Positions 6,698-60,432 of a stretch of DNA of 64,000 nt are shown one piece after another. Location: contig CAYREO010000005.1 in NCBI GenBank assembly GCA_964423315.1, positions 31,834 to 95,833 of the forward strand, in the 5' to 3' direction. This stretch comes from an uncultured Eubacteriales bacterium. Its GTDB lineage: Bacteria > Acidobacteriota > Aminicenantia > Aminicenantales > Saccharicenantaceae. The position numbers were made by a program, and so were the translations under genes. A model generated the notes under the pieces. The model saw nothing but the letters and a program-made list of their open reading frames with translations, searched no databases and was not told the DNA's origin. Each line of letters opens with the position of its first letter. Within the stretch, counting starts at the first letter, position 1.

Positions 6698-6782
6698 GGG
6701 CAGGTGGCGGAATCGGCAGACGCGCTAGGCTTAGGACCTAGTTCCTGATGAAGGAGTGCGGGTTCGAGTCCCGCTCTGCCCA
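6698..6782 (+). tRNA. tRNA-Leu (anticodon TAG), type II with long variable arm
   Basis: Folded by hand. Acceptor GGGCAGG/TCTGCCC; 3-bp D-stem with an 11-nt loop; anticodon stem CTAGG/CCTAG with loop CTTAGGA (U33, anticodon UAG, G37); variable arm TCCT-GATGA-AGGA; T-arm GCGGG-TTCGAGT-CCCGC; discriminator A. CCA not encoded. Confidence 0.85.
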
Positions 6783-8266: not shown

Positions 8267-10711
8267 ATGCAGGATCCCAGCGAACATCCGGAGGTCCTCA
8301 GGAACATCCCTCTCATCCCCCTGAGGGACCTCGTGGTCTTCCCGGCCACCCTGGTGCCCTTCATCGTCGGGCGGTCCTCTTCCATTCAGGCCCTGGAGAA
8401 GGCCGCCGAAAAGGACAAGATGATCTTCTTGGCCGCCCAGATGGACGCTTCGATCGACAACCCGGCCCCCAAGGACATCTATTCGGTCGGGGTCACGGCC
8501 AAGATCATCCGGACCATCCGGAGCGACGAACGGAACATGAAGGTCATCGTCGAGGGCAAGAGCCGGGCCCGGATCGTCGAATACCTCAGCACGACCCCGT
8601 TCTACCAGATCCTGGCCAAGGTCGTCCGGGAGGTCGACGACCGGGTGCCGGAATCCCGCGAGCTCCTGAAGAGGGTCCTGTCCCTTTTCGAGGACTATCT
8701 CAAGCTCAATCAGAACGCCAACCTCGACTCCATCATCCCGGCCCTGCGCGAGAACACGCCGGACCGGATCACGGACATCATCGCCTCCCACGTCTTCATG
8801 CCCCTCGAAGAGAAACAGAACCTCCTCGAGACCGTCAACAGCTTCGAGAGACTGAGGCGCCTCAATTACGTCCTGGAGAACGAGATCCTCAAGATCCACT
8901 CCGCCTATCAGAAGGACCCCCAGCGGGCCGCAAAGCGCCGGGCGGCCATGAAGGACCCCTCCGCCGTCGGGCAGAAGGGTTATCCGCCCCGTCCCCCGGG
9001 CTACCGGAAAGAGGACCAGCCCAACGAGATCGAGGAGCTTCGCCAGAAAGTCGCCAAGGCCAAGATGCCCCCCGACGCCGAGGAGAAGGCTTACAAAGAG
9101 ATCGAGAGGCTGGAGGCCATGCCCCCGATGTCCGCCGAGGCCACGGTCAGCCGGAATTATCTCGATTGGCTCCTGTCGCTGCCCTGGATCAAGAAGTCCC
9201 GGGAAAAGCGCGATCTCAAGGAGGCCGAGGCCATCCTCAACCAGGACCATTACGGCCTGGAGAAGGTCAAGGAGCGGATCCTGGAGTATCTCTCCATCCG
9301 CCAGCTCGTCAAGAACCCCAAGGGGGTCATCCTGGGATTCATCGGCCCCCCGGGCGTCGGCAAGAGCTCGCTCGGCAAGTCCATCGCCCGGGCCACCGGA
9401 CGGAAGTTCGTCCGGCTCTCCCTGGGCGGCGTCCGCGATGAGGCCGAGATCCGCGGCCACCGGCGGACCTATATCGGGGCCTACCCGGGCCGCATCATCC
9501 AGATGATCAAGCGCGGCGGGACGCGCAATCCCGTCTTCCTCCTGGACGAGGTCGACAAGATGAGCATGGACTTCCGGGGCGACCCGGCCTCGGCTCTCAT
9601 GGAGGTCCTCGACCCCGAGCAGAACAACACGTTCCTCGACCACTACATCGACACGGACTTCGACCTCTCTCAGGTCATGTTCATCGTCACGGCCAACATG
9701 GTCGAGCCCATCCCCAAACCGCTCATCGACCGCATGGAGATCATCCGCATCCCCGGCTACACCGAGGATGAGAAGCTCGAGATCGCCAAGCGGTTCCTGC
9801 TTCCCAAGCAGATGACGGCCCACGGCCTGACCGGAGAGAACATCCAATTCTCGGACCGGGCCCTTCTCAAGCTCATCCGGTGCTACACGCGGGAGGCCGG
9901 GGTCCGGAACCTGGAGCGCGAGATCACCACGGTCTGCCGGAAGATCGTCAAGAAGGTCGTCCAGAAGGGGAAGGACACCAGCGAACGGATCACTCCGAAG
10001 AACCTCGAGACATACCTGGGGATTCCCAAGTTCCGCCGCTCGGAGTTCGATAAGCGCGACGAGGTCGGGGTCAGCACCGGCATGGCCTGGACGGAATTCG
10101 GCGGCGAGCTGCTGCGGTTCGAGGCCACCAAGATCCATGGCAAGGGCAATTTCATGCTGACCGGCCAGCTCGGCGAGATCATGCAGTAGTCGGCCCAGCC
10201 GGCCTTCAGCTTCGTCCGCGGCAAGAACAACTAGCTCGACATCGCCCGGGACCTCCACCGGAACTCGGACATCCACATCCACGTTCCCGAGGGCTCGACG
10301 CCCAAGGAGGGGCCGTCGGCGGGCATCACCATCGCCACGGCCATCATCTCGCTCCTGACCGACATCCCGGTCAGCAAGAAGGTCGCCATGAGCGGGGAGA
10401 TCACCCTCAAGGGCAAGGTCCTGCCGGTCGGCGGCATCAAGGAAAAGCTCCTGGCGGCCTACCGGGAAGGTATCCGGGAAGCCATCCTGCCCCTCGACAA
10501 CCGGCCCGACCTCAAGGACCTGCCCAAGGTCATCAAGCAGAACATGACCATCCATCTCGTCGAGGCCATGGACGATGTCCTGAGGATCGCCCTGACCAAG
10601 GAGCTCCCCAAGAAGTCCGCGGACAGCCGCGACAAGAAGCCGGTCGAGCCGGAAAAAGCCCTCCCGGTAGGGGAGGGGGACGCGCCCAAGGAGCCCCCGC
10701 TGACCAACTGA
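8267..10711 (+). pseudogene. lon: ATP-dependent Lon protease (LonA), full length but interrupted by two in-frame TAG codons (10187-10189 and 10232-10234)
   Basis: ORF 8267..10189 carries the Lon N-domain and AAA+ module (GPPGVGKSS Walker A). The same frame reopens after the second TAG and runs to a TGA at 10709-10711, encoding the proteolytic domain ([21 protein letters not shown] catalytic Ser; [22 protein letters not shown]). Each TAG sits where E. coli and B. subtilis Lon have a conserved Glu (GEVMQ-E-S; SKTE-E-LG). Confidence 0.7.
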
Positions 10712-15042: not shown

Positions 15043-15373
15043 CCTTCGGAGGTCTCTCGAACCGTCCGGGGACCCGTAAGAAATTGCTGCCCATTGCCTA
15101 TCAAGGCCGTAATGAAGAGAATAATGAGTCTAGCGCCGACGGCGAATAGCCCAGCTGAGGAGAAGGCGCGAGATCGCTCGAGACGCCCGGAACTTAGGAA
15201 AATATCACGTATTTTATTTAATATCAATTATTTACAATAAATGTGCAAGAACAGACGAAGGACAGGCTGCCAGGTGGGGGATCGACTTCCGAACAGGTCT
15301 GAGATACAACATCGATAGGGAACAGGCTATCGGTAAACAAAGCAGGCCTCTCAACAAAATGGAACGGATCACG

Positions 15374-15389
15374 AGTCGGCATGCCGACA
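15374..15389. repeat. 16-bp inverted repeat AGTCGGCATGCCGACA, copy 1; candidate non-canonical parS-like centromere site
   Basis: GTCGGCATGCCGAC is a perfect 14-bp palindrome. A near-identical copy lies on the other side of parAB. Same 16-bp TGT...ACA architecture as canonical parS. Confidence 0.4.
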
Positions 15390-15623
15390 ATCGATGAGGC
15401 GGAGCTGTCGTATTAATGTATAAACGCATCATCATGACAGGGACAGGCTCATGAGGCCGATCATAGCGGCCATTACAACGGTCCGGGAGCGGCAAAAATG
15501 GTCATTAATGTGCCGGGTCATGGATCGTTAGAACCAAGCGATTTCAGATAGATTATAAATTTAACAGGCAAAAACGGAAGCCGGTCATAACTGGATGCGG
15601 CGAGCGGTGATGTTGGAACCGGA

Positions 15624-15677
15624 GATATCCACAGTTGCCCATAAGTTGGGCGTCAGGGATATCCACAGATTGTGGAA
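15624..15677. promoter_or_regulatory. Cluster of three DnaA-box-like 9-mers
   Basis: ATATCCACA twice in direct orientation (15625-15633, 15660-15668) and TTCCACA inverted (15671-15677). Each is one mismatch from the TTATCCACA consensus. They sit in an AT-rich region, with a very AT-rich 50-bp tract at about 15200-15250. Confidence 0.3.
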
Positions 15678-15875
15678 TTCTATATCTCATTGAAGCTGAA
15701 CGAATAAGAGCCGCCCTGAAGATTGAGTCGCATAAGAAATATTATGTCAACTAATTAGGCCGGGCTTCAGATACGCTCTGCTTCATATTCCCTTTTGTTC
15801 TCGGGATCCAGTCGAAGGGCGAATTGCGCTTCTTCTGATCATGTTTTGGAGGCCGGGCCGGCTTTGATTTTCTTC

Positions 15876-16739
15876 TTATGCCTGCGCTTTCGGCCCGGCG
15901 GCTTCCTTCTGGCGCTTGATGCGCTCTATGATATCCTGAAGGATCTCGATGATCTCCTGCTTGGTGATCATCTGCTTTTTGAATTCGAGCCTCATCCGAT
16001 ATTTATCCGTGTCGTCAGGGACGAAATTATAAACATAATACTTCAGTTTCTTCGTCTTTCCCTTGAGGTATTTCGCCAGGTCCCGAGTGTCCTCCCGGGT
16101 CAGGCGCCGCTCGGCGATCTCCTTGGTCAGCTGGAGCATATCATCTTCCGTTTTTTGTTTAGCGATCTCGATGATCGTCGTCCTGCTGAAGACGCCTGAG
16201 GACTTCATGATATCCCGGACATGCTGTGGGATCCGGGCGATGGACAGGATCTCGGTGATCGTCGAACGGGCCTTGCCGATCTTCTCGGAGACCTGCTGAT
16301 GGTTGTACCCGTACATGTCGATCATCGCTTGAAGGCCGTCGGCCTCTTCAAAGATATCCAGGTCTTTCCTCTGCAGGTTCTCGATGAGCGCGATCTCCAT
16401 GGCCTCGCTGTCCTCGACCTCCATTTCGATGCAGGGGATCTCTTTGAGGCCGATGTTCTTGGAAGCGATGAACCGACGCTCTCCGGCGATGATCTCGAAC
16501 CGGGCTCCTTTGGAACGCACGAGAATGGGCTCGAGGATGCCCTTGCTGCGGATGGAATCCATCAGCTCTTCGATGTTGCCGAGCTCGCAGCGCGCCTGAT
16601 GCGGGTTGGGATCGATCCGTTCGAGAGGGACCATCCGGATGCGCGGCCCCAAGGACCTTGACGAGATGAGATCGACGAAATGGCCATCGTGTCTCATGGC
16701 GACGGATTCCGGAAGCCCGGATCTTTTTGTTTTAGGCAC
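15876..16739 (-). CDS. parB: ParB/Spo0J partition protein
   Basis: ParB N-terminal box (ILEPILVR...EIIAGERRFIAS) and HTH (QQVSEKIGKARSTITEIL). Overlaps the parA stop by 8 nt. TAA stop. Low GC. Confidence 0.9.
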   Translation of the reverse strand: MPKTKRSGLPESVAMRHDGHFVDLISSRSLGPRIRMVPLERIDPNPHQARCELGNIEELMDSIRSKGILEPILVRSKGARFEIIAGERRFIASKNIGLKEIPCIEMEVEDSEAMEIALIENLQRKDLDIFEEADGLQAMIDMYGYNHQQVSEKIGKARSTITEILSIARIPQHVRDIMKSSGVFSRTTIIEIAKQKTEDDMLQLTKEIAERRLTREDTRDLAKYLKGKTKKLKYYVYNFVPDDTDKYRMRLEFKKQMITKQEIIEILQDIIERIKRQKEAAGPKAQA

Positions 16740-17496
16740 GGTGAATGATCTCCTCGGCGACTTTCCGGTACTGCTCGGCCCCTATGGAGCCGGGCGCATA
16801 GGTGAAGATCGACTCCTTATAGGCCGGGCTTTCTTCGAGCTTGACGCTCTTCGAGATATAGGTCTTGAACAGCTTGTCCCCGAATACTTTGCGGATCCTG
16901 GCAACGACGTCCCTAGCCAAATTCGTCCTCTTGTCGTAGAGCGTGATGAGAACCCCCAGGACTTTGAGATTGGGATTGGCGATCCTTCGAACTTTTTCGA
17001 TCGTTTCCAGGAGGTCATCGGTGCCTTCAAGGCACAGGTAAGATGACTGGATCGGGATCAAAATGTAATTGGCGGCGACCAAAGCATTGAGAGTGATAAG
17101 TCCCAATGTCGGCGGCGTGTCGATGAAGATATATTGGTATTTATGCTTGATGGGCTCGAGAGCGTCCTTGAGCCTGAAGTGACCGTCGAATTCGCCGATC
17201 AAGGAAGGCTCGAGCTTGGCCATCGAGATCTTCGTGATAGCCATGTCGAGCCCCGGAATGTTGGACCGGACGATAACGTCCTCGAGCTTATCGCCTTTCT
17301 TCATTAGAACGTCATAGAGGGATTTCTCGTATTTTTCGGGGCTGGCCACGGTAGAAATGGTGCTGTGGGCCTGAGGGTCGGTATCGACAAGCAAGACCTT
17401 CTTTCCCATCAACGCCATCGCCGCGGAAACATTGATCGATGTCGTCGTCTTCCCGACCCCACCCTTCTGGTTGGTGATGGCAATGATCACATCCAA
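16732..17496 (-). CDS. parA: ParA/Soj partition ATPase
   Basis: Deviant Walker A KGGVGKTT and ParA-type motifs (VLLVDTDPQ). 254 aa. TAA stop. Low GC. Confidence 0.9.
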   Translation of the reverse strand: MDVIIAITNQKGGVGKTTTSINVSAAMALMGKKVLLVDTDPQAHSTISTVASPEKYEKSLYDVLMKKGDKLEDVIVRSNIPGLDMAITKISMAKLEPSLIGEFDGHFRLKDALEPIKHKYQYIFIDTPPTLGLITLNALVAANYILIPIQSSYLCLEGTDDLLETIEKVRRIANPNLKVLGVLITLYDKRTNLARDVVARIRKVFGDKLFKTYISKSVKLEESPAYKESIFTYAPGSIGAEQYRKVAEEIIHRA

Positions 17497-17592
17497 CTCC
17501 CGTCCAAGGCGATATCTATTGTGCCGCAGAGGTTACTTTATAACCAAGGACACAATAAAAATCAAGGAAAATCAACATCCATGAAATTAAAA

Positions 17593-17608
17593 TGTCGGCG
17601 TGCCGACA
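17593..17608. repeat. 16-bp inverted repeat TGTCGGCGTGCCGACA, copy 2; candidate parS-like site upstream of parA
   Basis: 15 of 16 positions match the copy at 15374-15389 (arms TGTCGGC/GCCGACA). It lies about 100 nt upstream of the parA start, embedded in an AT-rich tract. Confidence 0.4.
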
Positions 17609-17859
17609 ATTTTCTTAAATACCACTTAATAAATAAGATAATGTCACAATAAAAGCGCAGCAGCATATTTTCATGAACAGCGTAAGCTGAGTGTCTGAAT
17701 AATAGCGCTTCTATCGGCAACGTAAATAATTGATAATAAACAAAATACAGATATTCTATAACGCATTGAAAACAAATGAATTACGGCCTCATTAAATCTC
17801 CTGAAAAATGAGAATATTGTAGCGAGTGACGCGGGAGGAAATTTTTCATAGAATGATGT

Positions 17860-19314
17860 TTGCATGGTCTGGCGATGCAGAAAGAAACAGTTCCTGGCTT
17901 CTTGAGACGGCTGAACGTTCTCGATACGGCGTTCCTTGTCGTCGGTGCGGTCATCGGCTCGGGCATCTTCATGACCCCGGGGATCATCGCCGCCGGCCTC
18001 CCCTCCCCCGGGCTCCTCCTTCTCGTATGGATCGCGGGGGGCCTCATCACTTTGTGCGGAGCGCTCGCATTCGCCGAATTGGGGGCCATGTACCCGCAAG
18101 CGGGAGGCCAATACATCTATCTTCGGGAAGCCTACGGGCCGGGGGCGTCATTCCTTTTCGGCTGGGGGTTCTTCGGGTTCATCATGTGCGGAGGGCTGGC
18201 CGCCCTGGCCGTGGCGTTCGCTGAATTCTTAGGGGGCTTCTTTCCGGCGCTCTCGACGGAAAATATAATCCTCACGGTCCGCCTCCCCGGTCTCAGCCAT
18301 TCACTTTCGGCCGGCCAGCTGGTCGCCGCCGGGGCCATTCTCTCTTTGACCGCTGTCAATTCGCTGGGCATCCGGTCCGGAGCGGCCATCCAGAATCTCC
18401 TGACGCTTTTCAGGCTGGGTTCGGTCGCCGCCCTCGTCGTTCTGGGCCTCCTTGTCGGGGCCAAAGGGGGAGCGGACAACTTCCGTCTTCTCTTCCCCCC
18501 GGGGCCGGCTCTCCCCGACCTCCTCCGGCCGATCGGGCTGGCCTTGGTCGCCGTTTTCTGGACGTATGACGGCTGGTATGCGGTCAACTGCACGGCCGAG
18601 GAGATCCGCGACCCCGAGCGGACCATCCCCCGAGGCCTGGCGCTCGGGGTCCTGATTGTGACGCTCTGCTACGTCCTGGTCAATGCCGTCTACCTGCTGG
18701 CCCTGCCGATCGAAGAGATCAGGGGGGTTGTCCGGATCGGCGAAAAAGCGGCCTCGGCCCTGTTCGGGGGCGGCGGCGCCGGTCTTTTCGCGGCCGTGGT
18801 CATGGTCTCGATCTTCGGCTGCCTCAACGCCAATATCCTGTACGGTCCGCGGGTCTACTACGCCATGGCCAAGGACGGTCTCTTTTTCCGGTCCATGGGC
18901 CGCTTGAGCCCCCGGTACCGCGTCCCCGCGAACGCCCTGAGAGGACAAGCCGTCTGGTCCGCGTTCCTGTGCCTGTCCGGGACCTATCAGGCCCTTTACG
19001 AGTACATGGTTTTCGCGTTGCTCATGTTCTTCGCGGCCACGGGCGCGGCCGTCATCGTTTTGCGCCGGAAGTTCCCCGGCCGGACCAGACCCTACCGGAC
19101 GTGGGGATACCCCGTCGTGCCCCTGGTCTTCATGGCCATGAGCGGGGCCGTCTTTCTGAGCATCGTCCTTTCCCAGCCGCTCAAGTCCCTGATCGGCGCG
19201 GTCCTGCTCGGGGCCGGATATCCCGCCTACCTGTGGTGGGGATCCCGCCGTCCTTCTTGGTCAACCGGGAACGACAAAAAGGATATCCAGGAACCGCGAA
19301 ATCGCTTACAATAG
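17860..19314 (+). CDS. APC-superfamily amino acid/polyamine permease
   Basis: 12 predicted TM helices and an APC-family N-terminal signature (FLVVGAVIGSGIFMTPG). TAG stop. Confidence 0.8.
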   Translation: MHGLAMQKETVPGFLRRLNVLDTAFLVVGAVIGSGIFMTPGIIAAGLPSPGLLLLVWIAGGLITLCGALAFAELGAMYPQAGGQYIYLREAYGPGASFLFGWGFFGFIMCGGLAALAVAFAEFLGGFFPALSTENIILTVRLPGLSHSLSAGQLVAAGAILSLTAVNSLGIRSGAAIQNLLTLFRLGSVAALVVLGLLVGAKGGADNFRLLFPPGPALPDLLRPIGLALVAVFWTYDGWYAVNCTAEEIRDPERTIPRGLALGVLIVTLCYVLVNAVYLLALPIEEIRGVVRIGEKAASALFGGGGAGLFAAVVMVSIFGCLNANILYGPRVYYAMAKDGLFFRSMGRLSPRYRVPANALRGQAVWSAFLCLSGTYQALYEYMVFALLMFFAATGAAVIVLRRKFPGRTRPYRTWGYPVVPLVFMAMSGAVFLSIVLSQPLKSLIGAVLLGAGYPAYLWWGSRRPSWSTGNDKKDIQEPRNRLQ

Positions 19315-19338
19315 GGCCCGACGCGAGCGAAAAGCGAT

Positions 19339-21123
19339 ATGACCGACGCGCCTTGCATCGTCCACATCCTTCCCGACGGGACCAAGGTCAAAGCCCGTCC
19401 GGGCGAGATCCTGGCCGACGTCTTGACCAAGGCCGGCGTTCCGCTCTCGCTTTACTGCCATAAGAAGGGCCTCTGCGGCAAGTGTGTCGTCCGCGTCATC
19501 GGCGGTCCCCTCCCCTTCCCTCATCCGGCCGAAGAGGCCTTGATCCGGGGAAAGCGGCTCAGCCCCGATCACAGGCTGGCCTGCCTCTACGAGATCCGGG
19601 GCGACATGACGGTCGAAATACCGCCGACCTCGCTTATCGGCCGGATCACCGTCCTTGAGACCGGCCTGGCGACATCCGTCGTCCCCGATCCCGCCGTGAG
19701 AAAGATCCCCATGACGTTGGAGGCCGGCGACGCCGGCTCCCCGTCGGCCGCTCTCGAACGGCTCGAAACCCGTCTGCAAACCCGCGATCTCGCCATGCCC
19801 CTGGCGGCTCTCGCCAAGCTCGGCGCTGGCGGCATCCCTTCCGGGAGCGAATTCACGGCCGTCCTCTACGGGGACCGCGAGGTCCTCGACATCGAGCCCG
19901 GTGACACGTCGGGCGAGGTCTACGGCTTGGCTGTCGATCTCGGGACCAGCACGATCGTCGCCGAGCTTGTCGACCTCCGGACGGGAGCGACCGTGACCCG
20001 GGCCTCGGCGATGAACAGCCAAGCCTCCTACGGGGCCGACGTCGTCTCGAGGATCACCTTCGCCTTCGAAGACCCCGACAACCTCCGCCGCCTCCGCAAC
20101 GCCGTCGTCCAGCTCCTCAACGAGCTCGTCGCCCAGACGACCCGCACGAGCGGGGTGCCCCGGCACAGGATCTACGACGCCGTCGTCGCCGGGAACACGG
20201 CCATGAACCACTTCCTGTGCGGCGTGCCCGTGGACTCCCTGGCCCTCGCCCCGTTCAACGCCGTCTTCGCCGCGCTGCCGGCGTTCCCGGCCTCGGCGAT
20301 CGGCCTCAATCTGGACCCCCACGCCCGGATCTATGTCGTCCCCAACATCGGGAGCTTCGTCGGCGGCGACATCACCGCCGGCCTGACCGCCTCGGAGATG
20401 GACGCCAAGCCGGGCCGGGAGCTGTTCATCGATCTCGGGACGAACGGCGAGATCGTCCTCAAGAGGGGCAGGGAATTCGCGGCCGCCTCGACGGCCGCCG
20501 GACCGGCTTTCGAGGGCATGAACATCAGCTGCGGCATGCTGGCCGTCGCCGGGGCCGTCCATCGCGCGGAATGGGACAACGGCTTCAAGCTGGGGACGAT
20601 CGACGGCCTGCCTCCGGCCGGGATCTGCGGGACGGGGCTCATCGACGTCCTGGCCCTGGCCCTCGAGCAGGGCCTGCTCGGCCCTGACGGGCGGATCGCC
20701 GCTCCCGGCAAAAAGATCGCGCTTGGAGAGGGTCTCGCCTTGACCCAGCAGGACATCCGGGCCGTCCAGCTGGCCGTGGCCGCCGTCCGGACCGGGGTGA
20801 CACTCATGCTCAGGGAGTTCCAAGTCTCCTCCCGCCAGCTCGACCGGATCCTCGTCGCCGGCGCGTTCGGCAGCTCGCTCGACGTCCGGAACGCCATGGC
20901 CATCGGCCTCCTGCCCCAAGTCCATCCCGGGAGGGTCACCTTCGTCGGGAACTCCTCGCTGGCCGGGGCCCGGAAGCTGCTCCTCGCGGGGCAGGCGCGG
21001 AAGGCCGCCGAGTCGCTGGCGGCGTCCGTGGCCCACGTGTCCCTGGCCGCGCGGCCCGGCTTCCAGGACGAGTTCGTCAAAGCCATGGAATTCCGGCCGT
21101 ACCGGGTAGCTGGTGATAAATGA
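19339..21123 (+). CDS. RamA-like ATP-dependent reductive activase of corrinoid proteins (N-terminal 2Fe-2S ferredoxin domain plus ASKHA/DUF4445 domain)
   Basis: N-terminus has a plant-type ferredoxin Cys pattern (CHKKGLCGKC...C). The C-terminal ~450 aa have the acetate/sugar-kinase-like fold signatures of the COG3894 RACo family. 594 aa. Confidence 0.8.
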   Translation: MTDAPCIVHILPDGTKVKARPGEILADVLTKAGVPLSLYCHKKGLCGKCVVRVIGGPLPFPHPAEEALIRGKRLSPDHRLACLYEIRGDMTVEIPPTSLIGRITVLETGLATSVVPDPAVRKIPMTLEAGDAGSPSAALERLETRLQTRDLAMPLAALAKLGAGGIPSGSEFTAVLYGDREVLDIEPGDTSGEVYGLAVDLGTSTIVAELVDLRTGATVTRASAMNSQASYGADVVSRITFAFEDPDNLRRLRNAVVQLLNELVAQTTRTSGVPRHRIYDAVVAGNTAMNHFLCGVPVDSLALAPFNAVFAALPAFPASAIGLNLDPHARIYVVPNIGSFVGGDITAGLTASEMDAKPGRELFIDLGTNGEIVLKRGREFAAASTAAGPAFEGMNISCGMLAVAGAVHRAEWDNGFKLGTIDGLPPAGICGTGLIDVLALALEQGLLGPDGRIAAPGKKIALGEGLALTQQDIRAVQLAVAAVRTGVTLMLREFQVSSRQLDRILVAGAFGSSLDVRNAMAIGLLPQVHPGRVTFVGNSSLAGARKLLLAGQARKAAESLAASVAHVSLAARPGFQDEFVKAMEFRPYRVAGDK

Positions 21124-22016
21124 GGAGCCTCCTCCTTCAACTCGCAGCGACCCGGCCCATCCTCCTCGACGGCGCCATGGGGACTGAGCTGATGGCCCGC
21201 GGGCTTCCCCGCGGGGCCTGTCCGGAAGCCTGGAACCTCGAACGGCCGGAGGTCGTCGCCGCCGTCCACGCGGATTACTTCGAGGCCGGGTCCGACGTCG
21301 TCTCCACAAATACGTTCGGCGGCAGCCGCATCAAGCTGGCCGGCCACGGGCTCGACGGCCGGACCTACGAGATCAACGCGGCCGCGGCCCGGCTGGCCCG
21401 GGGCGGGGCGCCCGCCGGCCGGTTCGTGGCCGGGAGCGTCGGGCCGACCGGGAAGTTCCTGAAGCCCCAGGGCGGATTCACCGAAGAGGAGTTCGAGGAC
21501 TCCTTCGCCGAGCAGGCCCGCGGCCTGGCCGACGGCGGGGTGGACGTGCTCCTTCTCGAGACGCACTACGACCTTCGGGAAGCCCTGGCCGGGGTGCGCG
21601 CCGCCCGTCGCGTGACGGGGATCCCCGTGTTCGTGACGATGACCTTCAACGCCCACCGCCGCGGCTTCTTCACTCTCATGGGCGACAGCGTCGCGACGTG
21701 CGCCGAAGAGCTCGAGCGGGCGGGGGTCGCGGCCGTCGGGGCCAACTGCACGCTCAACAGCGAGGAAATGGTCGGCGTGATCAGGGCCTTTGGATGGGCA
21801 ACGGCTCTGCCGCTCGTCGCCCAGGCCAACGCCGGCCGGCCCGTTCTGGGCGCGGACGGGAGCGTCGCGTATTCCCAGAGCTTGGACGACTATGTCAAGC
21901 ACGTCCCGGCCCTCATCGGGGCCGGGGCCCGTTTCGTCGGCGGGTGCTGCGGCACAGGCCCCGCCCATATCCGGGCCATGGCCCGGCTCGTCGCGAAAGA
22001 AGGAGTAACCGCGTGA
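21120..22016 (+). CDS. Homocysteine S-methyltransferase domain protein (MetH N-terminal Hcy-binding module, Pfam S-methyl_trans type), stand-alone
   Basis: ILLDGAMGTELM start, TIM-barrel Hcy-domain motifs and the zinc ligand motif GGCCGTGPAHIRAM. Its ATG overlaps the RamA stop (ATGA). Confidence 0.8.
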   Translation: MRSLLLQLAATRPILLDGAMGTELMARGLPRGACPEAWNLERPEVVAAVHADYFEAGSDVVSTNTFGGSRIKLAGHGLDGRTYEINAAAARLARGGAPAGRFVAGSVGPTGKFLKPQGGFTEEEFEDSFAEQARGLADGGVDVLLLETHYDLREALAGVRAARRVTGIPVFVTMTFNAHRRGFFTLMGDSVATCAEELERAGVAAVGANCTLNSEEMVGVIRAFGWATALPLVAQANAGRPVLGADGSVAYSQSLDDYVKHVPALIGAGARFVGGCCGTGPAHIRAMARLVAKEGVTA

Positions 22017-22663
22017 AGGAAGAGCTGTACAGGAACATGACGGAGGCCATCGTGGCCGGCGACCGGGCCCGGTCCGCCGCCCTGGCCGAAGAAGCCGTCA
22101 AGGGCGGTCTGGACCTGCTCGAGGTCATCGAAAAAGGCTATGTCCCGGGCATCCAGGAGGTCGGCCGGCTGTGGGAGGAGGGCGAGTACTTCCTGCCCGA
22201 GCTCATCACGAGCGCCGAGGCCATGAAAATGGCCATGGCCGTGCTCGAGCCCGAATTGGCCCGCCGGAGCCTCAAAGCCCGGACGGGGGGCAAGGTCGTC
22301 ATCGGCACGGTCGAGGGCGACATCCACGACATCGGCAAGAATCTCGTGGCCTCGATGCTCCAGGCGGGAGGGTTCGAGGTCCACGACCTCGGCGTCGACG
22401 TCCGCTTGGAACGGTTCGTCGAGACGGCCGAAGCGGTGGGCGCGGATTTCATCTGCCTCTCCGCCCTGCTGACGACGACCATGACCAACCAGAGGCGGCT
22501 CATCGCCATGCTCCGCGAAAAGGGCCTGCGGGACAAGTACAAGATCCTCGTCGGCGGGGCTCCCGCCAGCGCCAAGTGGGCCGAAGAGATCGGGGCCGAC
22601 GGCTACGCCGAGAACGCCGTGGCCGCCGTCAAGCTGGCCAAGTCCCTGGCCGGCCAGGGTTGA
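22013..22663 (+). CDS. B12-binding corrinoid protein (MtbC/MttC/MtgC-like: helical cap plus Rossmann B12 domain)
   Basis: DxHxxG cobalamin His-ligand motif (GDIHDIGKN) and Rossmann core (KVVIGTVEG...ADFICLSALLTTT). Start assigned to GTG 22013 (GTGA overlap with the upstream stop) because the N-terminal cap helix KEELYRNMTEAIVAGD would otherwise be lost. ATG 22037 is the alternative. Confidence 0.75.
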   Translation: MKEELYRNMTEAIVAGDRARSAALAEEAVKGGLDLLEVIEKGYVPGIQEVGRLWEEGEYFLPELITSAEAMKMAMAVLEPELARRSLKARTGGKVVIGTVEGDIHDIGKNLVASMLQAGGFEVHDLGVDVRLERFVETAEAVGADFICLSALLTTTMTNQRRLIAMLREKGLRDKYKILVGGAPASAKWAEEIGADGYAENAVAAVKLAKSLAGQG

Positions 22664-22683
22664 AGAAGGGAAGGACCGACATC

Positions 22684-24153
22684 ATGATCGAAGCGAAAAG
22701 ACCGAAGCTGGAGCTTCTGGACCGGGCCTTTGTCGAACGCATCGTGGATGAAGGCCTGACGCTCCTCGAGCGCCAGGGGATGATGATCGAGAACCCGGAA
22801 GCGCTCCGCCTTCTCGGAGAGGCCGGGGCGGACATCGACAGCGGCGGCCAAAGGGCCCGCTTGAAAAGGGACCTCGTCGAGACCTGCCTGGCCTCGACGC
22901 CGGCCTCCATCCGCCTTTACGATCGCGGCGGCGAGAAGGCGTTCGTCGTCGGCGGGGACGAGGTCCATTTCGACCCGGGCTCGGCGGCCGTGACCCTCCT
23001 CGACCATACGACCCGGGAGGAGCGCCGGGCGACGACCCGCGACCTCATCGATTTCTACAAGCTCGTCGAGACCCTGGAGAACATCCATTTCCAGAGCACC
23101 GGGCTGATCAGCACGGACGTCCCGGCCGCCGCCTCCGACGCCTACCGGCTCTATCTCGGGTTGTGTTTTTCGGCCAAGCCGTTCGTCACCGGGACCTTCC
23201 GGGTCGAGGGCTTCAAGCCGATGAAAGACCTGCTGGCCGCGGTCCGCGGCGGCGAAGAGGATCTCCGCCGCAAGCCCCTGGCCATTTTCGACGCCTGCCC
23301 CTCCCCTCCCCTCAAGTGGAGCCACCTGACCGCCCAGAGCCTGATCGACGCGGCCCGGGCCGGCATTCCCTCCGAGCTCATCTCCATGGGCATGACGGGG
23401 GCGACCTCGCCGGTGACCATCGCCGGGACCCTCGTCCAGCATGTCGCCGAGAGCCTCTGCGGCGTGGTCATTTGTCAGCTCGCCAAACCCGGCGCGCCGG
23501 TGATCTTCGGCGGTTCGCCGTCGAGCTTCGACATGAGGAAGGGCACAACCCCGATGGGGGCCATCGAGACGATGATGATCGACGCGGCCTACGCCCAGAT
23601 CGGAAAGTTCTTGAACCTGCCCACTCACGCCTACATGGGCCTGAGCGACGCCAAGGTCAATGACCCCCAAGCCGGTTTCGAGACCGCCCTGGGGGCTGCG
23701 CTGGGGGCCCTGGCCGGGGTCAACGTCATCTCCGGGCCGGGGATGCTGGATTTCGAGAGCGCCCAGAGCTTCGAGAAGCTGGTCATCGACGACGGCATCT
23801 GCGCCATGGTCTACCGGCTGCTGGCGGGCATCGCCCAGCGCGACGAGCCCATCGCCCTGGGGCTGTTCGAGGGCTTCACCCCCGACATGCAGTTCCTGTC
23901 CCATCCCCACACGCGGCGCTGGTACAGGAAGGAGCATATGCCCGCCGGGCTCGTTGACCGGGACCCCTACGACGCCTGGGTCGCGGCCGGCCGGACCTCG
24001 ATCGTCGACAAGGCCCATGCCGATGTCGCCCGGCGGATCGGGGCCTATGCGGCGCCCCCGCTGGACAAGGCCCTCGGCCGGGAGCTCGAGAGGATCATGA
24101 CCTCTTACGCCCGCGCCCAGGGCGCCGAGCATCTCCCGGCGCTGAATATCTGA
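22684..24153 (+). CDS. MttB-superfamily (trimethylamine methyltransferase family, COG5598) methyltransferase, non-pyrrolysine type
   Basis: 489-aa TIM-barrel MttB-family protein with no in-frame TAG, hence not a Pyl-dependent TMA methyltransferase. RBS GAAGGGAAGG precedes ATG 22684. The upstream part of ORF 22171..24153 is a spurious extension overlapping the corrinoid gene in another frame. Confidence 0.85.
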   Translation: MIEAKRPKLELLDRAFVERIVDEGLTLLERQGMMIENPEALRLLGEAGADIDSGGQRARLKRDLVETCLASTPASIRLYDRGGEKAFVVGGDEVHFDPGSAAVTLLDHTTREERRATTRDLIDFYKLVETLENIHFQSTGLISTDVPAAASDAYRLYLGLCFSAKPFVTGTFRVEGFKPMKDLLAAVRGGEEDLRRKPLAIFDACPSPPLKWSHLTAQSLIDAARAGIPSELISMGMTGATSPVTIAGTLVQHVAESLCGVVICQLAKPGAPVIFGGSPSSFDMRKGTTPMGAIETMMIDAAYAQIGKFLNLPTHAYMGLSDAKVNDPQAGFETALGAALGALAGVNVISGPGMLDFESAQSFEKLVIDDGICAMVYRLLAGIAQRDEPIALGLFEGFTPDMQFLSHPHTRRWYRKEHMPAGLVDRDPYDAWVAAGRTSIVDKAHADVARRIGAYAAPPLDKALGRELERIMTSYARAQGAEHLPALNI

Positions 24154-24169: not shown

Positions 24170-24187
24170 GACCGCATCAGAGCGGTC
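24170..24187. terminator. Perfect 6-bp-stem hairpin GACCGC-ATCAGA-GCGGTC between convergent genes
   Basis: Lies 14 nt after the MttB stop and overlaps the stop of the convergent MBL gene. No U-tract, so weak as an intrinsic terminator. Confidence 0.25.
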
Positions 24188-25595
24188 AGTCGAGGTCCCA
24201 GATCTCGCGGTACTCGGGGGCCTCGACGGTCCAGCCGCGTTCTTTGCGCACCCGCTCGGCGAAGTTGCGGACGACCTCGCCGTCCCCGTGGGTGACGAAC
24301 AGCCGCCGCGGAGGAGCCTCGAACGCATCGAGCCAGCGGCCCAGGGCCTTGCGGTCGGCATGTGCGGAGAACCCGTTGATCTTGGCCAGCCGGGCCTTGA
24401 CCGGCACGGTCTGGCCGTGGATGCGGACCTGCGGCTGCTTCTCGAGGATCTGGCGGCCCAGGGTGTCCCGGGCTTGATAGCCGACGAACAGGACGGTCGA
24501 CTCCGGACGGGAGATATTGCGCAGCAGGTGGTGCTTGATGCGGCCCCCCGTGCACATGCCCGAGCCGGCCATGATGACCGCCGGCCCTTCGACCTCATTG
24601 AGGGCCTTGGATTCGTCGGGCGTCTGGACGATGGTCAGGCCCGGGAAGGCGAACGGGCTTCTCCCCCGCCGGAAAAGGGCCTTGGCCTCTTCGTCGAGGA
24701 CGTCGAGGTGGCGCTCGAAGGCCTTGGTCACTTCGCGGGCCATCGGGCTGTCGAGAAAGACGGGCACGGGAGGGATGGCCTTTTCCCGGGCGAGGCGGCT
24801 GAGATGGAACATCAGGTCCTGGGCCCGCTCGATGGCGAACGTCGGGATGACGAGGTTGCCCCCGGCCGCCGCGGTCTCCCGGACGATGTCGGCCAGGAGG
24901 TCGGCGACGCGCTTGGGGTCCTCGTGGTCGCGGTCGCCGTAGGTCGACTCCATGACGATGTAATCGGCCTTCTCGAACACGGACGGGTCCTCGACGAACG
25001 GCATGTCCCATTGGCCGATGTCCCCCGAGAAGACCAGCCGACGGTCCCCTCCGTTCCCCCTCGCCCGAACCTCGATCATGGCCGAGCCGAGAATGTGACC
25101 GGCGTCGCGGAAGCGGACCGTCACGGAGGCGTTGAGAGCGACGTCCTCCTCGTAACGGACCTCCTCGACGAGCGGCATCGTCCCCTGGACGCTCTCGGTC
25201 GTATAGAGCGGGACGACGGGATGGGGCCCCTGGCGGCCTTCCTTCTCGTGCCGCTTCTGCTTGTAGGCCGCGTCTTCCTCCTGGATCTTGGCCGAGTCCA
25301 TCAGGGCGATCGACAGGAGGTCGGCCGTGGGCGCCGTCGTCAGCACGGTCCCCGTGAAACCGGAATCGACCAGCCTCGGCAGGAGGCCCGAGTGGTCGAG
25401 GTGGACATGGGTCAGCAGACAGAGGTCGATGTCCCCGGGCGGGATCGGGAAATCGTCCCAGTTCCGTTCGAGATAGGGCCGTTCCTGATAGAGACCGCAC
25501 TCGACGAGAAGCTTCAAGCCGCCGGCCTCGAGATAGTAGCAGGACCCCGTGACCTGGCGGGCGGCCCCGAGAAAGCCCAGCTTCAAGGGTCTCAA
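24186..25595 (-). CDS. MBL-fold metallo-hydrolase with beta-CASP/RNA-metabolising domain
   Basis: HxHxDH motif (THVHLDHSG), beta-CASP motifs and a C-terminal RMMBL-like segment (NGFSAHAD). The start is TTG (25593-25595), overlapping the upstream stop (TTGA). Confidence 0.7.
   Translation of the reverse strand: MRPLKLGFLGAARQVTGSCYYLEAGGLKLLVECGLYQERPYLERNWDDFPIPPGDIDLCLLTHVHLDHSGLLPRLVDSGFTGTVLTTAPTADLLSIALMDSAKIQEEDAAYKQKRHEKEGRQGPHPVVPLYTTESVQGTMPLVEEVRYEEDVALNASVTVRFRDAGHILGSAMIEVRARGNGGDRRLVFSGDIGQWDMPFVEDPSVFEKADYIVMESTYGDRDHEDPKRVADLLADIVRETAAAGGNLVIPTFAIERAQDLMFHLSRLAREKAIPPVPVFLDSPMAREVTKAFERHLDVLDEEAKALFRRGRSPFAFPGLTIVQTPDESKALNEVEGPAVIMAGSGMCTGGRIKHHLLRNISRPESTVLFVGYQARDTLGRQILEKQPQVRIHGQTVPVKARLAKINGFSAHADRKALGRWLDAFEAPPRRLFVTHGDGEVVRNFAERVRKERGWTVEAPEYREIWDLD

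Positions 25596-59070: not shown

Positions 59071-60432
<1,362 letters not shown>

What the first reader, a model, noticed from the sequence alone, without database searches (positions are those of the whole stretch)
19339..24153. Four-gene corrinoid methyltransferase cluster: RamA-like activator, stand-alone homocysteine-binding domain, B12 protein and MttB-family methyltransferase
The cluster is co-directional and tightly packed: ATGA and GTGA overlaps, and a 20-nt gap before the MttB homologue.

Its logic matches a three-component methyl relay. The MttB-family enzyme methylates the corrinoid protein from a methylated amine. RamA (ferredoxin plus ASKHA domains) re-reduces Co(II). The second methyltransferase here is not the usual pterin-binding MtgA/MtrH/AcsE type. 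It is a MetH-like Hcy-binding TIM barrel with the GGCCG zinc site.

This predicts direct, corrinoid-dependent methyl transfer from a quaternary amine (glycine betaine, proline betaine, carnitine or similar) to homocysteine. That would be a split, substrate-swapped methionine synthase, functionally analogous to BHMT but B12-dependent. An APC permease immediately upstream (17860-19314) could supply the substrate. I am not aware of this exact gene combination having been characterised.
Basis: partly seen in the sequence, partly recalled or inferred. Interest (0 to 1): 0.75.

Follow-up and report, generated by a model that had tools for sequence, protein, structure and literature searches.

The report
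MttB-type split methionine synthase operon
A bacterium of the uncultured Aminicenantes group carries a tightly packed operon that most likely makes methionine with vitamin B12, taking the methyl group from an unidentified methylated compound through an MttB-family enzyme instead of from folate; this gene set has been predicted before but never tested biochemically.

Summary
Window 17860-24153 (+) encodes an APC permease, a RACo-type corrinoid activase, a stand-alone MetH-type homocysteine-binding methyltransferase, an MtgC-type corrinoid protein and a non-pyrrolysine MttB-family methyltransferase. The ATGA and GTGA overlaps and the 20-nt gap are as described.

The window comes from Candidatus Aminicenantes. 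The same five-gene order recurs in 25 of 54 informative species-level genomes. The B12-MttB pair is the near-constant core. A MetH-specific module (the Hcy domain, or a stand-alone MetH activation domain) lies nearby in 47 of 54. No pterin-binding gene was found near any of about 170 related loci.

Best reading: a split, module-swapped cobalamin-dependent methionine synthase.

- The combination is not unprecedented. Williams et al. 2022 described exactly this cluster and hypothesis. Mausz et al. 2025 characterised the related MtgBCDE system genetically.
- A carboxylated betaine donor is not supported. All four glycine-betaine-binding residues of MtgB are replaced by a different, conserved signature.

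The donor is unknown. Whether a folate module exists elsewhere in the genome could not be tested.

Side finding: in some relatives the genes end a CODH/ACS operon in which no acsE was detected.

Novelty: new variant of a known (predicted) kind. Interest is moderate.

The parts
17497..17859 (.). AT-rich (about 35% GC) 363-nt spacer between divergent parA and the permease gene; presumed promoter/leader of the operon
   Evidence: Sequence, composition. Three sigma-70-like sites on +. No Rfam riboswitch. The equivalent spacer is 360-917 nt in 29 related loci.
17860..19314 (+). APC-superfamily permease (484 aa); putative importer of the methyl donor
   Evidence: AA_permease_2 E 7e-62. NCBIfam hits only at subfamily level, below cut-offs. 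Adjacent to the activase gene in 25 of 54 informative species loci. A 60%-identical copy sits next to a second MttB paralogue in L039/L040.
19339..21123 (+). RACo/AcsV-type ATP-dependent reductive activase of corrinoid proteins (594 aa): N-terminal 2Fe-2S ferredoxin plus ASKHA domain
   Evidence: Fer2, RACo_linker, Raco_middle, RACo_C_ter. Best NCBIfam hit is AcsV at 385 bits, below its cut-off of 800. C40/C46/C49/C82 and two DLGT motifs. Proteins with ferredoxin + DUF4445 domains (the family the window activase matches as RACo_C_ter; the equivalence of the two names is my own knowledge) are genetically required for B12-dependent methionine synthase in Phaeobacter and Desulfovibrio (PMC5764234).
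21120..22016 (+). Stand-alone MetH-type homocysteine-binding, zinc-dependent methyltransferase (298 aa); proposed methyl-corrinoid:homocysteine methyltransferase
   Evidence: PF02574 E 8e-72 over the whole profile. Thermotoga MetH Hcy domain 1q7m at 2e-50, against BHMT and MmuM at about 1e-21. C210 and C276/C277 align with Cys residues of Thermotoga MetH in the GxNC and GGCCGT motifs, which I take (from memory) to be its zinc ligands. All 120 best homologues are 277-306 aa single-domain proteins.
22013..22663 (+). Corrinoid (B12) protein of the methylamine/MtgC type (216 aa), His-on/base-off motif
   Evidence: B12-binding_2 + B12-binding. TIGR02370 at 232.6 bits, above its cut-off of 215.3; nearest named model is MtgC. 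1y80 and the MttC chain 7xcn_M at about 1e-53, against MetH B12 domains at about 1e-30. D103-I-H105-D-I-G108.
22684..24153 (+). Non-pyrrolysine MttB-superfamily methyltransferase (489 aa) of a distinct subfamily; proposed methyl-donor:corrinoid methyltransferase, substrate unknown
   Evidence: PF06253 E 3e-91. TIGR02369 at 382 bits, below its cut-off of 525. About equally distant from M. barkeri MttB (225 bits) and D. hafniense MtgB (219 bits). Leu320 at the pyrrolysine position. Signature S100/H315/S350/F357-E358 replaces the MtgB betaine site. 73-92% identical among the 120 best database hits and 61-92% across the wider Aminicenantes orthologue set.

Best explanation
The operon encodes a split, module-swapped cobalamin-dependent methionine synthase. 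The proposed sequence of steps:
1. The MttB-family protein takes a methyl group from a small methylated compound and puts it on the Co(I) corrinoid of the MtgC-type B12 protein. The compound is probably a methylated amine or organocation without a carboxylate, brought in by the adjacent APC permease.
2. The MetH-type, zinc-dependent Hcy-binding protein passes the methyl group from methyl-Co(III) to homocysteine, giving methionine.
3. The RACo-type activase uses ATP and its 2Fe-2S cluster to return accidentally oxidised Co(II) to Co(I).

In this reading the MttB barrel does the job that the pterin-binding barrel does in MetH.

What is shown: domain identities, intact catalytic motifs, operon structure, and conservation of the gene association across a bacterial class and beyond.

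What is inferred: the direction of methyl flow, homocysteine as the acceptor, independence from folate, the role of the permease, and the nature of the donor.
For: **Module identities and motifs:**

**Coupled expression:** translational coupling through the ATGA and GTGA overlaps.

**Conservation within Aminicenantes:**
- The five-gene order is kept in 25 of 54 informative species loci.
- The Hcy gene lies within 9 kb of the MttB orthologue in 37 of 54.
- Either the Hcy gene or a stand-alone MetH activation-domain protein (PF02965, above gathering score for two of the three proteins scanned) is nearby in 47 of 54.
- The MttB/B12 pair therefore keeps company with two different MetH-specific modules and two alternative reactivation systems.

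**Outside Aminicenantes:** MttB relatives at 45-51% identity sit in B12-Hcy-ActDom-MttB, Hcy-ActDom-MttB and B12-Hcy-MttB clusters.

**No folate module nearby:** no MetH-type pterin domain was detected by tblastn in the window or in any related locus (about 170). No PF00809 hit appeared among the 45 window proteins or about 40 neighbouring proteins scanned with Pfam.

**Cofactor reactivation precedent:** ferredoxin + DUF4445 activases are genetically required for B12-dependent methionine synthase (PMC5764234).

**Literature precedent:** Williams et al. 2022 reached the same hypothesis from other phyla. MtgBCDE shows that MttB-family, corrinoid and Hcy modules work around one corrinoid protein.

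**Homocysteine supply:** AdoHcy hydrolase at 59071-60354 shows the organism regenerates homocysteine.
Against: - There is no biochemical or genetic test for any member of this MttB subfamily.
- A pterin-binding module, MetH or MetE encoded elsewhere in the genome could not be excluded. [quoted passage not shown]
- Ca. Electryoneota genomes that carry the cluster also have a full-length MetH.
- 17 of 54 Aminicenantes loci have no Hcy gene within 9 kb.
- More distant subfamily members sit beside a URO-D-type methyltransferase or MtmB instead. The MttB module is therefore not exclusively tied to methionine synthesis.
- A housekeeping methionine synthase that depends on an imported methyl donor would be physiologically risky.
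Confidence: 0.6

Rival explanations
1. MtgBCDE-type hub. The corrinoid protein is shared. Methionine is made from 5-methyl-THF through an unlinked pterin-binding protein (MtgD-like). The MttB homologue serves mainly to demethylate a growth substrate whose methyl groups go to THF. The operon would then be mtgB-mtgC-mtgE plus an activase, with mtgD elsewhere.
For: - This is the only experimentally supported model for a system containing these module types (PMC12478193).
- There, mtgD is unlinked in Ruegeria and Phaeobacter and is essential for both functions.
- In Sinorhizobium all the modules are co-located.
- The best NCBIfam hits of the Hcy protein include the Sinorhizobium-type 'betaine-homocysteine S-methyltransferase' model (208 bits).
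Against: - No pterin-binding gene lies within 9-10 kb of the MttB or AcsB genes of about 170 related loci, or in the 64-kb window.
- Mausz et al. report that marine mtgBCD clusters usually lack mtgE nearby. Here the Hcy gene is the one that stays linked.
- The corrinoid protein here is of the anaerobe MtgC/MttC type, not the CmuA-like Roseobacter type (PMC12478193).
- The MtgB betaine-binding residues are absent.
Confidence: 0.25
2. The MttB-subfamily protein has changed substrate class and demethylates a methyl-pterin (5-methyl-THF or similar). It would be a non-homologous replacement of the MetH pterin barrel and of AcsE. The operon would then be a complete, folate-dependent split MetH.
For: - The gene is universally present and highly conserved in a housekeeping, syntenic position next to parAB.
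- In at least 10 genome loci and many metagenome loci, B12-MttB ends a CODH/ACS operon (acsA-acsB-cooC-acsD-acsC-RACo-...). From general knowledge, this is where acsE usually lies. No AcsE was detected in about 22 kb.
- The quaternary-amine binding residues are lost.
Against: - No MttB-superfamily member is known to bind a pterin.
- The conserved APC permease argues for an imported small substrate.
- Distant members carrying the same signature sit beside MtmB/corrinoid genes or a URO-D methyltransferase, which is a classical methylamine context.
- The AcsE search was of limited sensitivity: tblastn with the E. coli MetH pterin domain, plus Pfam on selected ORFs only.
Confidence: 0.07
3. The permease and the Hcy protein form an mmuP/mmuM-like pair that makes methionine from imported S-methylmethionine or from SAM, without a corrinoid. 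The B12, MttB and RACo genes would be a separate methylamine-catabolic unit that merely lies alongside.
For: - From general knowledge, E. coli mmuP (APC permease) and mmuM (PF02574) form such an operon.
- The window Hcy protein is similar in size to MmuM (310 aa, 5dml).
- The window permease gives a weak hit to the S-methylmethionine permease model (36 bits).
Against: - The Hcy gene lies between the activase and corrinoid genes and overlaps both by 4 nt.
- It is far closer to MetH Hcy domains (2e-50) than to MmuM (2e-21).
- In other lineages it is linked to B12-MttB without any permease, and together with a MetH activation domain.
Confidence: 0.04

Closest known systems
[quoted passage not shown] Electryoneota and 'diverse bacteria' (Williams et al. 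2022, Environ Microbiol, PMC9324843)
   Same: - Same four module types.
[quoted passage not shown] The window protein is likewise about equally distant from both; whether it belongs to the same clade was not tested directly.
- Same hypothesis: corrinoid-dependent methionine synthesis from an unknown donor.
- I found the same arrangement at 45-51% MttB identity outside Aminicenantes, and the PF02965 version inside Aminicenantes.
   Different: - In the window the activation protein is an ATP-dependent RACo-type activase, not a MetH SAM-binding activation domain.
- An APC permease is part of the operon.
- The host is Aminicenantes.
- The published description is bioinformatic only.
MtgBCDE, the dual methionine synthase / glycine betaine methyltransferase of Ruegeria pomeroyi, and the three-part split MetH of Phaeobacter inhibens (Mausz et al. 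2025, PMC12478193; Price et al. 2018, PMC5764234)
   Same: - Stand-alone PF02574 Hcy module (MtgE).
- Stand-alone PF02310 corrinoid protein (MtgC).
- PF06253 methyltransferase (MtgB).
- Ferredoxin + DUF4445 (RamA-like) activase.
- One corrinoid protein serves more than one methyltransferase.
   Different: - That system needs a pterin-binding MtgD (PF00809) for both functions. None is linked here.
- A DUF1638 protein is part of it. None was seen here.
- According to Mausz et al., their MtgC is related to CmuA. The window protein is of the MtgC/MttC type.
- MtgB there is taken to use glycine betaine, whereas the window protein lacks the betaine-binding residues.
- Those hosts are aerobic Proteobacteria.
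MtgABC glycine betaine:THF methyltransferase system of Desulfitobacterium hafniense (as summarised in PMC12478193; active site in Picking et al. 2026, PMC13080624)
   Same: - Architecture of MT1 (MttB superfamily, non-Pyl, Leu at the Pyl position), corrinoid protein and MT2.
- The corrinoid protein's nearest named NCBIfam model is MtgC.
   Different: - MT2 there is the pterin-binding MtgA. Here it is a MetH-type Hcy-binding protein.
- The window MttB is only 30% identical to MtgB, and Y97/R312/H348/F356 are all replaced.
Core methionine synthases MesB/MesC, predicted to take methyl groups from the Wood-Ljungdahl corrinoid iron-sulfur protein (Price et al. 2021, PMC7857596)
   Same: - The concept of folate-independent methionine synthesis from a methylated corrinoid protein.
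- Linkage to acsBCD, as in the acs-linked Aminicenantes relatives where the Hcy gene follows acsC-RACo.
- No AcsE was detected there, which parallels Dehalococcoides.
   Different: - MesB/MesC are MetE-type (PF01717-like) barrels. Here the homocysteine module is MetH-type PF02574.
- A dedicated small corrinoid protein and an MttB-type loader are present here.
- The window itself has no acs genes.

Membership tests
MetH-type homocysteine-binding domain (Pfam PF02574, S-methyl_trans) | Full-length match to the family profile above its curated cut-off | tested here: met
   242.9 bits against a cut-off of 22; profile positions 2-282 of 283.
MetH-type homocysteine-binding domain (Pfam PF02574, S-methyl_trans) | Three zinc-binding cysteines (GxNC and GGCCG motifs) | tested here: met
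   C210, C276 and C277 align with Cys residues of Thermotoga MetH in its INCS and GGCCGT motifs. That these are the zinc ligands of MetH is my own knowledge, not tested here.
MetH-type homocysteine-binding domain (Pfam PF02574, S-methyl_trans) | Accepts the methyl group from a methyl-corrinoid rather than from betaine, S-methylmethionine or SAM | not testable with these tools
   Indirect only. The protein is closer to MetH (2e-50) than to BHMT or MmuM (about 1e-21), and its gene overlaps the corrinoid protein gene.
Full-length MetH (NCBIfam TIGR02082) | Hcy, pterin, B12 and activation domains in one polypeptide | tested here: not met
   The Hcy and B12 modules are separate 298-aa and 216-aa proteins. 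They score 180 and 142 bits against a cut-off of 1011. There is no pterin or PF02965 domain in the operon.
MttB superfamily (Pfam PF06253) | Profile match above the cut-off over the whole barrel | tested here: met
   306.4 bits against a cut-off of 25; profile positions 24-490 of 500.
Trimethylamine methyltransferase MttB proper (TIGR02369) | In-frame UAG-encoded pyrrolysine and a score above the equivalog cut-off | tested here: not met
   No in-frame stop. Leu320 aligns with the pyrrolysine of 7xcl. 382 bits is below the cut-off of 525.
Glycine betaine methyltransferase MtgB | Betaine-binding residues Y97, R312, H348 and F356 (PMC13080624) | tested here: not met
   The aligned residues are S100, H315, S350 and E358. 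The first three are conserved in all 8 further Aminicenantes orthologues examined; E358 is kept in 6 of the 8. The signature persists in representatives down to about 37% identity.
Methylamine/MtgC-type corrinoid protein (TIGR02370) | Score above the curated cut-off, and a DxHxxG...SxL...GG cobalamin-binding motif | tested here: met
   232.6 bits against a cut-off of 215.3. D103/H105/G108, S150/L152 and G181-G182 are present.
RACo/RamA reductive activases of corrinoid enzymes (PF14574 with PF17651 and PF17650) | ASKHA ATPase domain plus an iron-sulfur domain | tested here: met
   RACo_C_ter 220.8 bits, Raco_middle 187 bits, RACo_linker 39.5 bits, Fer2 29.6 bits, all above their cut-offs. Four Cys of the 2Fe-2S domain and two DLGT motifs are present.
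RamA proper (TIGR04270, methanogen type) | C-terminal 4Fe-4S ferredoxin domain and a score above the cut-off | tested here: not met
   156.5 bits is below the cut-off of 500. The iron-sulfur domain is an N-terminal 2Fe-2S one.
MtgBCDE split methionine synthase / betaine methyltransferase (PMC12478193) | Presence of MtgB, MtgC and MtgE module types plus a RamA-like activase | tested here: met
MtgBCDE split methionine synthase / betaine methyltransferase (PMC12478193) | A pterin-binding MtgD (PF00809) that links the corrinoid protein to THF | tested here: inconclusive
   Absent from the window and from the flanks of about 170 related loci. The rest of the genome could not be searched.
Williams-2022 cluster (MttB/MtgB homologue + Hcy methyltransferase + corrinoid protein + activation protein) | All four module types encoded together, with the MttB homologue outside the MtgB and MttB clades | tested here: met
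   The activation protein here is RACo-type rather than PF02965. PF02965 versions occur in other Aminicenantes and in non-Aminicenantes relatives.

The most novel reading that the evidence does not exclude
This MttB subfamily is the dedicated methyl-donor module of a folate-independent, corrinoid-dependent methionine synthase. That enzyme would be the main or only methionine synthase of a whole bacterial class.
- It would use a donor unlike any characterised MttB-family substrate. The clade has a conserved S/H(Q)/S/F-E pocket and no carboxylate-binding Arg.
- In lineages with a Wood-Ljungdahl operon, it occupies the place where acsE usually lies. It would then couple methyl entry, the corrinoid iron-sulfur protein and methionine synthesis without methyl-THF.
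- This would be a further architectural class of methionine synthase: a MetH whose pterin barrel has been exchanged for an MttB barrel.
Probability: 0.25. Interest if true: 0.8.

Novelty: new variant of a known kind. Interest (0 to 1): 0.5.

Why it matters
- **A further route to methionine.** If the relay works as proposed, methionine synthesis in Aminicenantes, an abundant uncultured group of anoxic sediments and aquifers, would draw methyl groups from an environmental or metabolic methylated compound and not from folate. That would add another kind of methionine synthase to MetH, MetE and MesA-D. It would also tie B12 demand and methylated-amine turnover to amino-acid biosynthesis.
- **A defined target subfamily.** The work marks out a large, conserved MttB subfamily with an unknown substrate. 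1383 cluster representatives score E<=1e-30, and a recognisable pocket signature runs through those closest to the window protein. This is a concrete target for the groups characterising MttB-family enzymes.
- **An acs operon with no detectable acsE.** The acs-linked versions show a CODH/ACS operon in which no acsE was found. This bears on how these bacteria connect the Wood-Ljungdahl pathway to one-carbon metabolism.

Tried and rejected
- **Riboswitch or leader RNA upstream of the operon.** Rfam at gathering score over the whole window, and at E<=1 over 17300-19500, found only a tRNA at 6698-6782.
- **Pterin-binding, metH, metE or MTHFR in the window.** A Pfam survey of 45 window proteins (five operon proteins, forty others) found none. 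tblastn with the E. coli MetH pterin and activation domains against the window and all loci gave only one 27-residue chance hit.
- **The 276-aa ORF between the Hcy and B12 genes in acs-linked loci.** I suspected AcsE/MtgA. It is a class I SAM-dependent methyltransferase.
- **The roughly 200-aa ORF next to MttB in low-GC relatives.** I suspected DUF1638. It is a MetH activation-domain (PF02965) protein.
- **Whether Aminicenantes genomes encode a pterin module elsewhere.** There was no way to scan whole genomes. The single genome-contig scan went on the MttB family. Homologue searches list only the 120 best hits, so a taxon-restricted search was impossible.
- **Supplementary Table S4 of Williams et al. 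2022.** It is not held in the library.
- **Literature on Aminicenantes and methionine synthase or MttB.** Nothing specific was found.
- **Canonical parS in the window.** Not found with up to 3 mismatches.
- **GC3-based gene calling.** It failed for the low-GC relatives and was replaced by greedy selection of the longest ORFs.
- **Structure prediction.** Not run, because sequence matches to solved structures were already unambiguous (E 1e-50 to 1e-65).

Full report
**1. What is in the sequence**

Five co-directional genes lie on the + strand.

| Coordinates | Product | Main evidence |
|---|---|---|
| 17860-19314 | APC-superfamily permease | AA_permease_2, E 7e-62 |
| 19339-21123 | Corrinoid activase | N-terminal 2Fe-2S ferredoxin domain plus RACo linker, middle and C-terminal ASKHA domains |
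| 21120-22016 | Hcy-binding methyltransferase, 298 aa | Matches the whole S-methyl_trans profile PF02574, E 8e-72 |
| 22013-22663 | Corrinoid protein, 216 aa | B12-binding_2 + B12-binding, GTG start |
| 22684-24153 | MttB-family protein, 489 aa | PF06253, E 3e-91 |

The following gene (24186-25595, a beta-CASP RNase) is convergent, so the operon ends with the MttB gene.

The catalytic motifs are intact:
- Hcy protein: C210 and C276/C277, with DGAMGT, TNTF and LLET.
- Corrinoid protein: D103-x-H105-x-x-G108, SxL and GG.
- Activase: C40/C46/C49/C82 and two DLGT motifs.
- MttB gene: no in-frame stop.

One correction applies: the activase is RACo/AcsV-type, not RamA-type. Its best NCBIfam model is AcsV (385 bits). 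RamA scores 156 bits, below its cut-off of 500.

**2. Closer identification of the modules**

- **Hcy protein.** Its nearest solved relative is the homocysteine domain of Thermotoga MetH (1q7m, 2e-50). BHMT and MmuM are far behind, at about 1e-21.
- **Corrinoid protein.** It passes the curated cut-off of the methylamine-type corrinoid family TIGR02370 (232.6 against 215.3). Its nearest named model is MtgC. It matches MttC of Methanosarcina (7xcn_M, 1e-53) much better than MetH B12 domains, at about 1e-30.
- **MttB homologue.** It is about equally far from pyrrolysine-containing MttB (7xcl, 225 bits, 33% identity) and from D. hafniense MtgB (2qne, 219 bits, 30% identity). It has Leu320 where MttB has pyrrolysine.

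**3. Source and surroundings**

Homologues carry the names Candidatus Aminicenantes and Aminicenantales.

The window is chromosomal housekeeping DNA: alaS, tig, lon, rho, parBA, lysS, a MiaB-like radical-SAM enzyme, purine and glycogen genes, and AdoHcy hydrolase at 59071-60354. No pterin-binding protein, MetH, MetE or MTHFR is encoded in the 64 kb. No riboswitch precedes the operon. The 363-nt spacer to the divergent parA is about 35% GC in a 65% GC genome.

**4. Conservation**

The MttB orthologue is 73-92% identical among the 120 best database hits. One scan of species-representative genomes found more than 575 relatives, and the best 80 are essentially all labelled Aminicenantes or are unclassified MAGs.

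A tblastn survey shows that B12-MttB is the near-constant core. The 54 loci with at least 5.5 kb of upstream sequence break down as follows.

| Arrangement upstream of, or next to, MttB | Loci (of 54) |
|---|---|
| APC-RACo-Hcy-B12 (the window's order) | 25 |
| End of an acs operon, with Hcy | 8 |
| B12 plus a roughly 200-aa MetH activation-domain protein, no Hcy within 9 kb | 9 |
| Other mixtures | 12 |

Two of the three activation-domain proteins scanned with Pfam exceed the PF02965 gathering score (E 6e-7 and 1e-6).

- An Hcy gene lies within 9 kb in 37 of 54 loci.
- An Hcy gene or an activation-domain gene lies nearby in 47 of 54.

The MttB/corrinoid pair thus travels with two different MetH-specific modules and with two alternative cofactor-reactivation systems. 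This is the strongest argument that its job is methionine synthesis.

**5. Beyond Aminicenantes**

A HMMER scan of 1.84 billion cluster representatives gave 1383 proteins at E<=1e-30. A graded series from 62% down to about 35% identity scores above the level of characterised MttB and MtgB.

Gene contexts of five such representatives:

| Representative | Identity to window MttB | Context |
|---|---|---|
| P0243 | 51% | B12-Hcy-ActDom-MttB |
| P0242 | 51% | Hcy-ActDom-MttB |
| P0246 | 45% | B12-Hcy-MttB |
| P0247 | 43% | B12-MttB, with a URO-D methyltransferase nearby |
| P0290 | 37% | B12-MttB beside MtmB-B12 |

The subfamily therefore behaves as a substrate:corrinoid methyltransferase whose partner methyltransferase varies. 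The Hcy partner dominates among the closer relatives.

**6. The methyl donor**

Picking et al. 2026 (PMC13080624) showed by mutagenesis and a ligand-bound structure that MtgB binds glycine betaine through four residues:
- Y97 and F356 form cation-pi contacts.
- R312 and H348 hold the carboxylate. They report that R312 is also conserved in the carnitine, proline-betaine, butyrobetaine and phosphocholine enzymes.

In the window protein these positions are S100, H315, S350 and E358, with F357 adjacent. S100, H315 and S350 are kept in orthologues from every cluster type. E358 is kept in most. The pattern S-[H/Q]-x-S-F-E persists down to about 37% identity.

A carboxylated betaine is therefore not the expected substrate. 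An amine or organocation without an acid group is a reasonable guess, but it is only an inference.

The APC permease is consistent with import of such a compound. It is conserved with the operon, and in L039/L040 a 60%-identical copy lies next to a second MttB paralogue. Its specificity cannot be read from the sequence.

**7. Prior knowledge**

- Williams et al. 2022 (PMC9324843) described this cluster in Ca. Electryoneota and 'diverse bacteria': a non-pyrrolysine MtgB/MttB homologue, a homocysteine S-methyltransferase, a corrinoid protein and an activation protein. They proposed a corrinoid-dependent methionine synthesis with an unknown donor. Those genomes also have a full-length MetH.
- Price et al. 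2018 (PMC5764234) showed genetically that a three-part split MetH needs a ferredoxin + DUF4445 (RamA-like) activase.
- Mausz et al. [quoted passage not shown] MtgE is the Hcy module and MttB-family proteins act as MtgB.

No member of this particular MttB subfamily has been tested, however, and the experimentally studied relative depends on a pterin module that is not linked here.

**8. Mechanism and rivals**

| Reading | What it proposes | Confidence |
|---|---|---|
| Best explanation | Methyl donor to MttB-family MT1, to Co(I) corrinoid protein, to MetH-type Hcy MT2, to methionine; RACo restores Co(I) | 0.6 |
| MtgBCDE-type hub | An unlinked pterin module supplies or accepts the methyl groups | 0.25 |
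| Methyl-pterin substrate | The MttB subfamily itself uses a methyl-pterin, replacing the MetH pterin barrel and AcsE | 0.07 |
| mmuPM-like pair | Permease and Hcy protein work without the corrinoid | 0.04 |

The first two readings are not mutually exclusive. Against the hub reading, no pterin-binding gene appears near any of about 170 related loci. It still cannot be excluded without whole genomes.

**9. An unexpected relative arrangement**

In at least 10 genome loci and many of the 80 metagenome loci, the genes close a CODH/ACS operon. The order is:

PocR/AraC regulator | B12 protein - (RACo paralogue) - CooC-like - 346-aa unknown - CODH - AcsB - CooC - AcsD - AcsC - RACo - Hcy - (SAM methyltransferase) - B12 - (ActDom) - MttB.

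No AcsE or Pterin_bind gene was detected in about 22 kb. This recalls Dehalococcoides. That organism lacks AcsE and MetF, and its MesB is thought to take methyl groups from the corrinoid iron-sulfur protein (PMC7857596). The AcsE search here was of limited sensitivity, so this remains a lead.

**10. Verdict**

It is a new variant of a known, so far only predicted, kind of system. The variant features are a RACo-type activase, a linked permease and an Aminicenantes host. Interest is moderate (0.5). It would rise to about 0.8 if whole-genome scans and reconstitution show a folate-independent, sole methionine synthase with a new donor.

Noticed in passing
window 8267-10711 (+), TAG codons at 10187-10189 and 10232-10234: The lon protease gene is intact in one frame except for two in-frame TAG codons 45 nt apart. 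Both align with Glu in relatives (L004, L056, L062), consistent with GAG>TAG changes. TAG still ends 4 of 46 window genes, including the first lon fragment at the internal TAG, so reassignment is unlikely. The cause is either sequence error or a recently inactivated gene.
   Followed up: partly
window 15043-17859: parB-parA and their flanks have much lower GC (35-59%) than the rest of the window (about 65%). They are bordered by long non-coding stretches: 833 nt downstream of parB and 363 nt upstream of parA. Two ATATCCACA DnaA-box-like sites lie at 15625 and 15659. No canonical parS was found. This may be an origin-proximal region.
   Followed up: partly
L041 167-10470; L069 51-10467; L116 5258-21487; about 10 genome and many metagenome loci: In some Aminicenantes the Hcy/B12/MttB genes end a CODH-AcsB-CooC-AcsD-AcsC-RACo operon in which no AcsE or pterin-binding gene was detected. 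A second B12 protein, a RACo paralogue 45-50% identical to the window's activase, and DUF3786 lie upstream of CODH.
   Followed up: partly
L116 6920-7960 (+), and the equivalent ORF in L131, L134, L135, L139, L103: A conserved 346-aa ORF immediately upstream of CODH in the Aminicenantes acs operon has no Pfam match at E<=0.001.
   Followed up: no
L135 17312-18154 (+) and L131 20623-21468 (+): A 280-aa class II aminoacyl-tRNA-synthetase-core protein follows the MttB orthologue directly, and another corrinoid protein gene follows that. It could be a PylS-like catalytic domain, so a pyrrolysine system may sit next to the non-Pyl MttB.
   Followed up: no
L006 7466-9949 (GCA_041304185.1, 3.19-Mb contig); L019 is similar: Upstream of an MttB identical to that of L007, the corrinoid gene appears fused to a FAD_binding_2 protein (827 aa), and the permease, RACo and Hcy genes are missing. 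A URO-D methyltransferase plus B12 protein pair lies 6 kb away. This is either a real rearrangement at the B12 gene or a chimeric assembly.
   Followed up: no
L005 11582-13044: In one long-contig MAG the MttB orthologue is broken into five pieces across three reading frames, while its neighbours are intact. This most likely reflects frameshift errors in the assembly and not a pseudogene.
   Followed up: partly
window 59071-60354 (-): S-adenosylhomocysteine hydrolase is encoded 35 kb from the operon. It supplies the homocysteine that the proposed synthase would re-methylate.
   Followed up: no
L039 13743-16644; L040 11708-14598; L046 10534-11982; L052 2125-3558: Several Aminicenantes carry further MttB paralogues, 23-33% identical to the window protein, in two or three types. 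Some lie directly next to an APC permease 60% identical to the window's. None of them has the MtgB betaine-binding residues either.
   Followed up: partly
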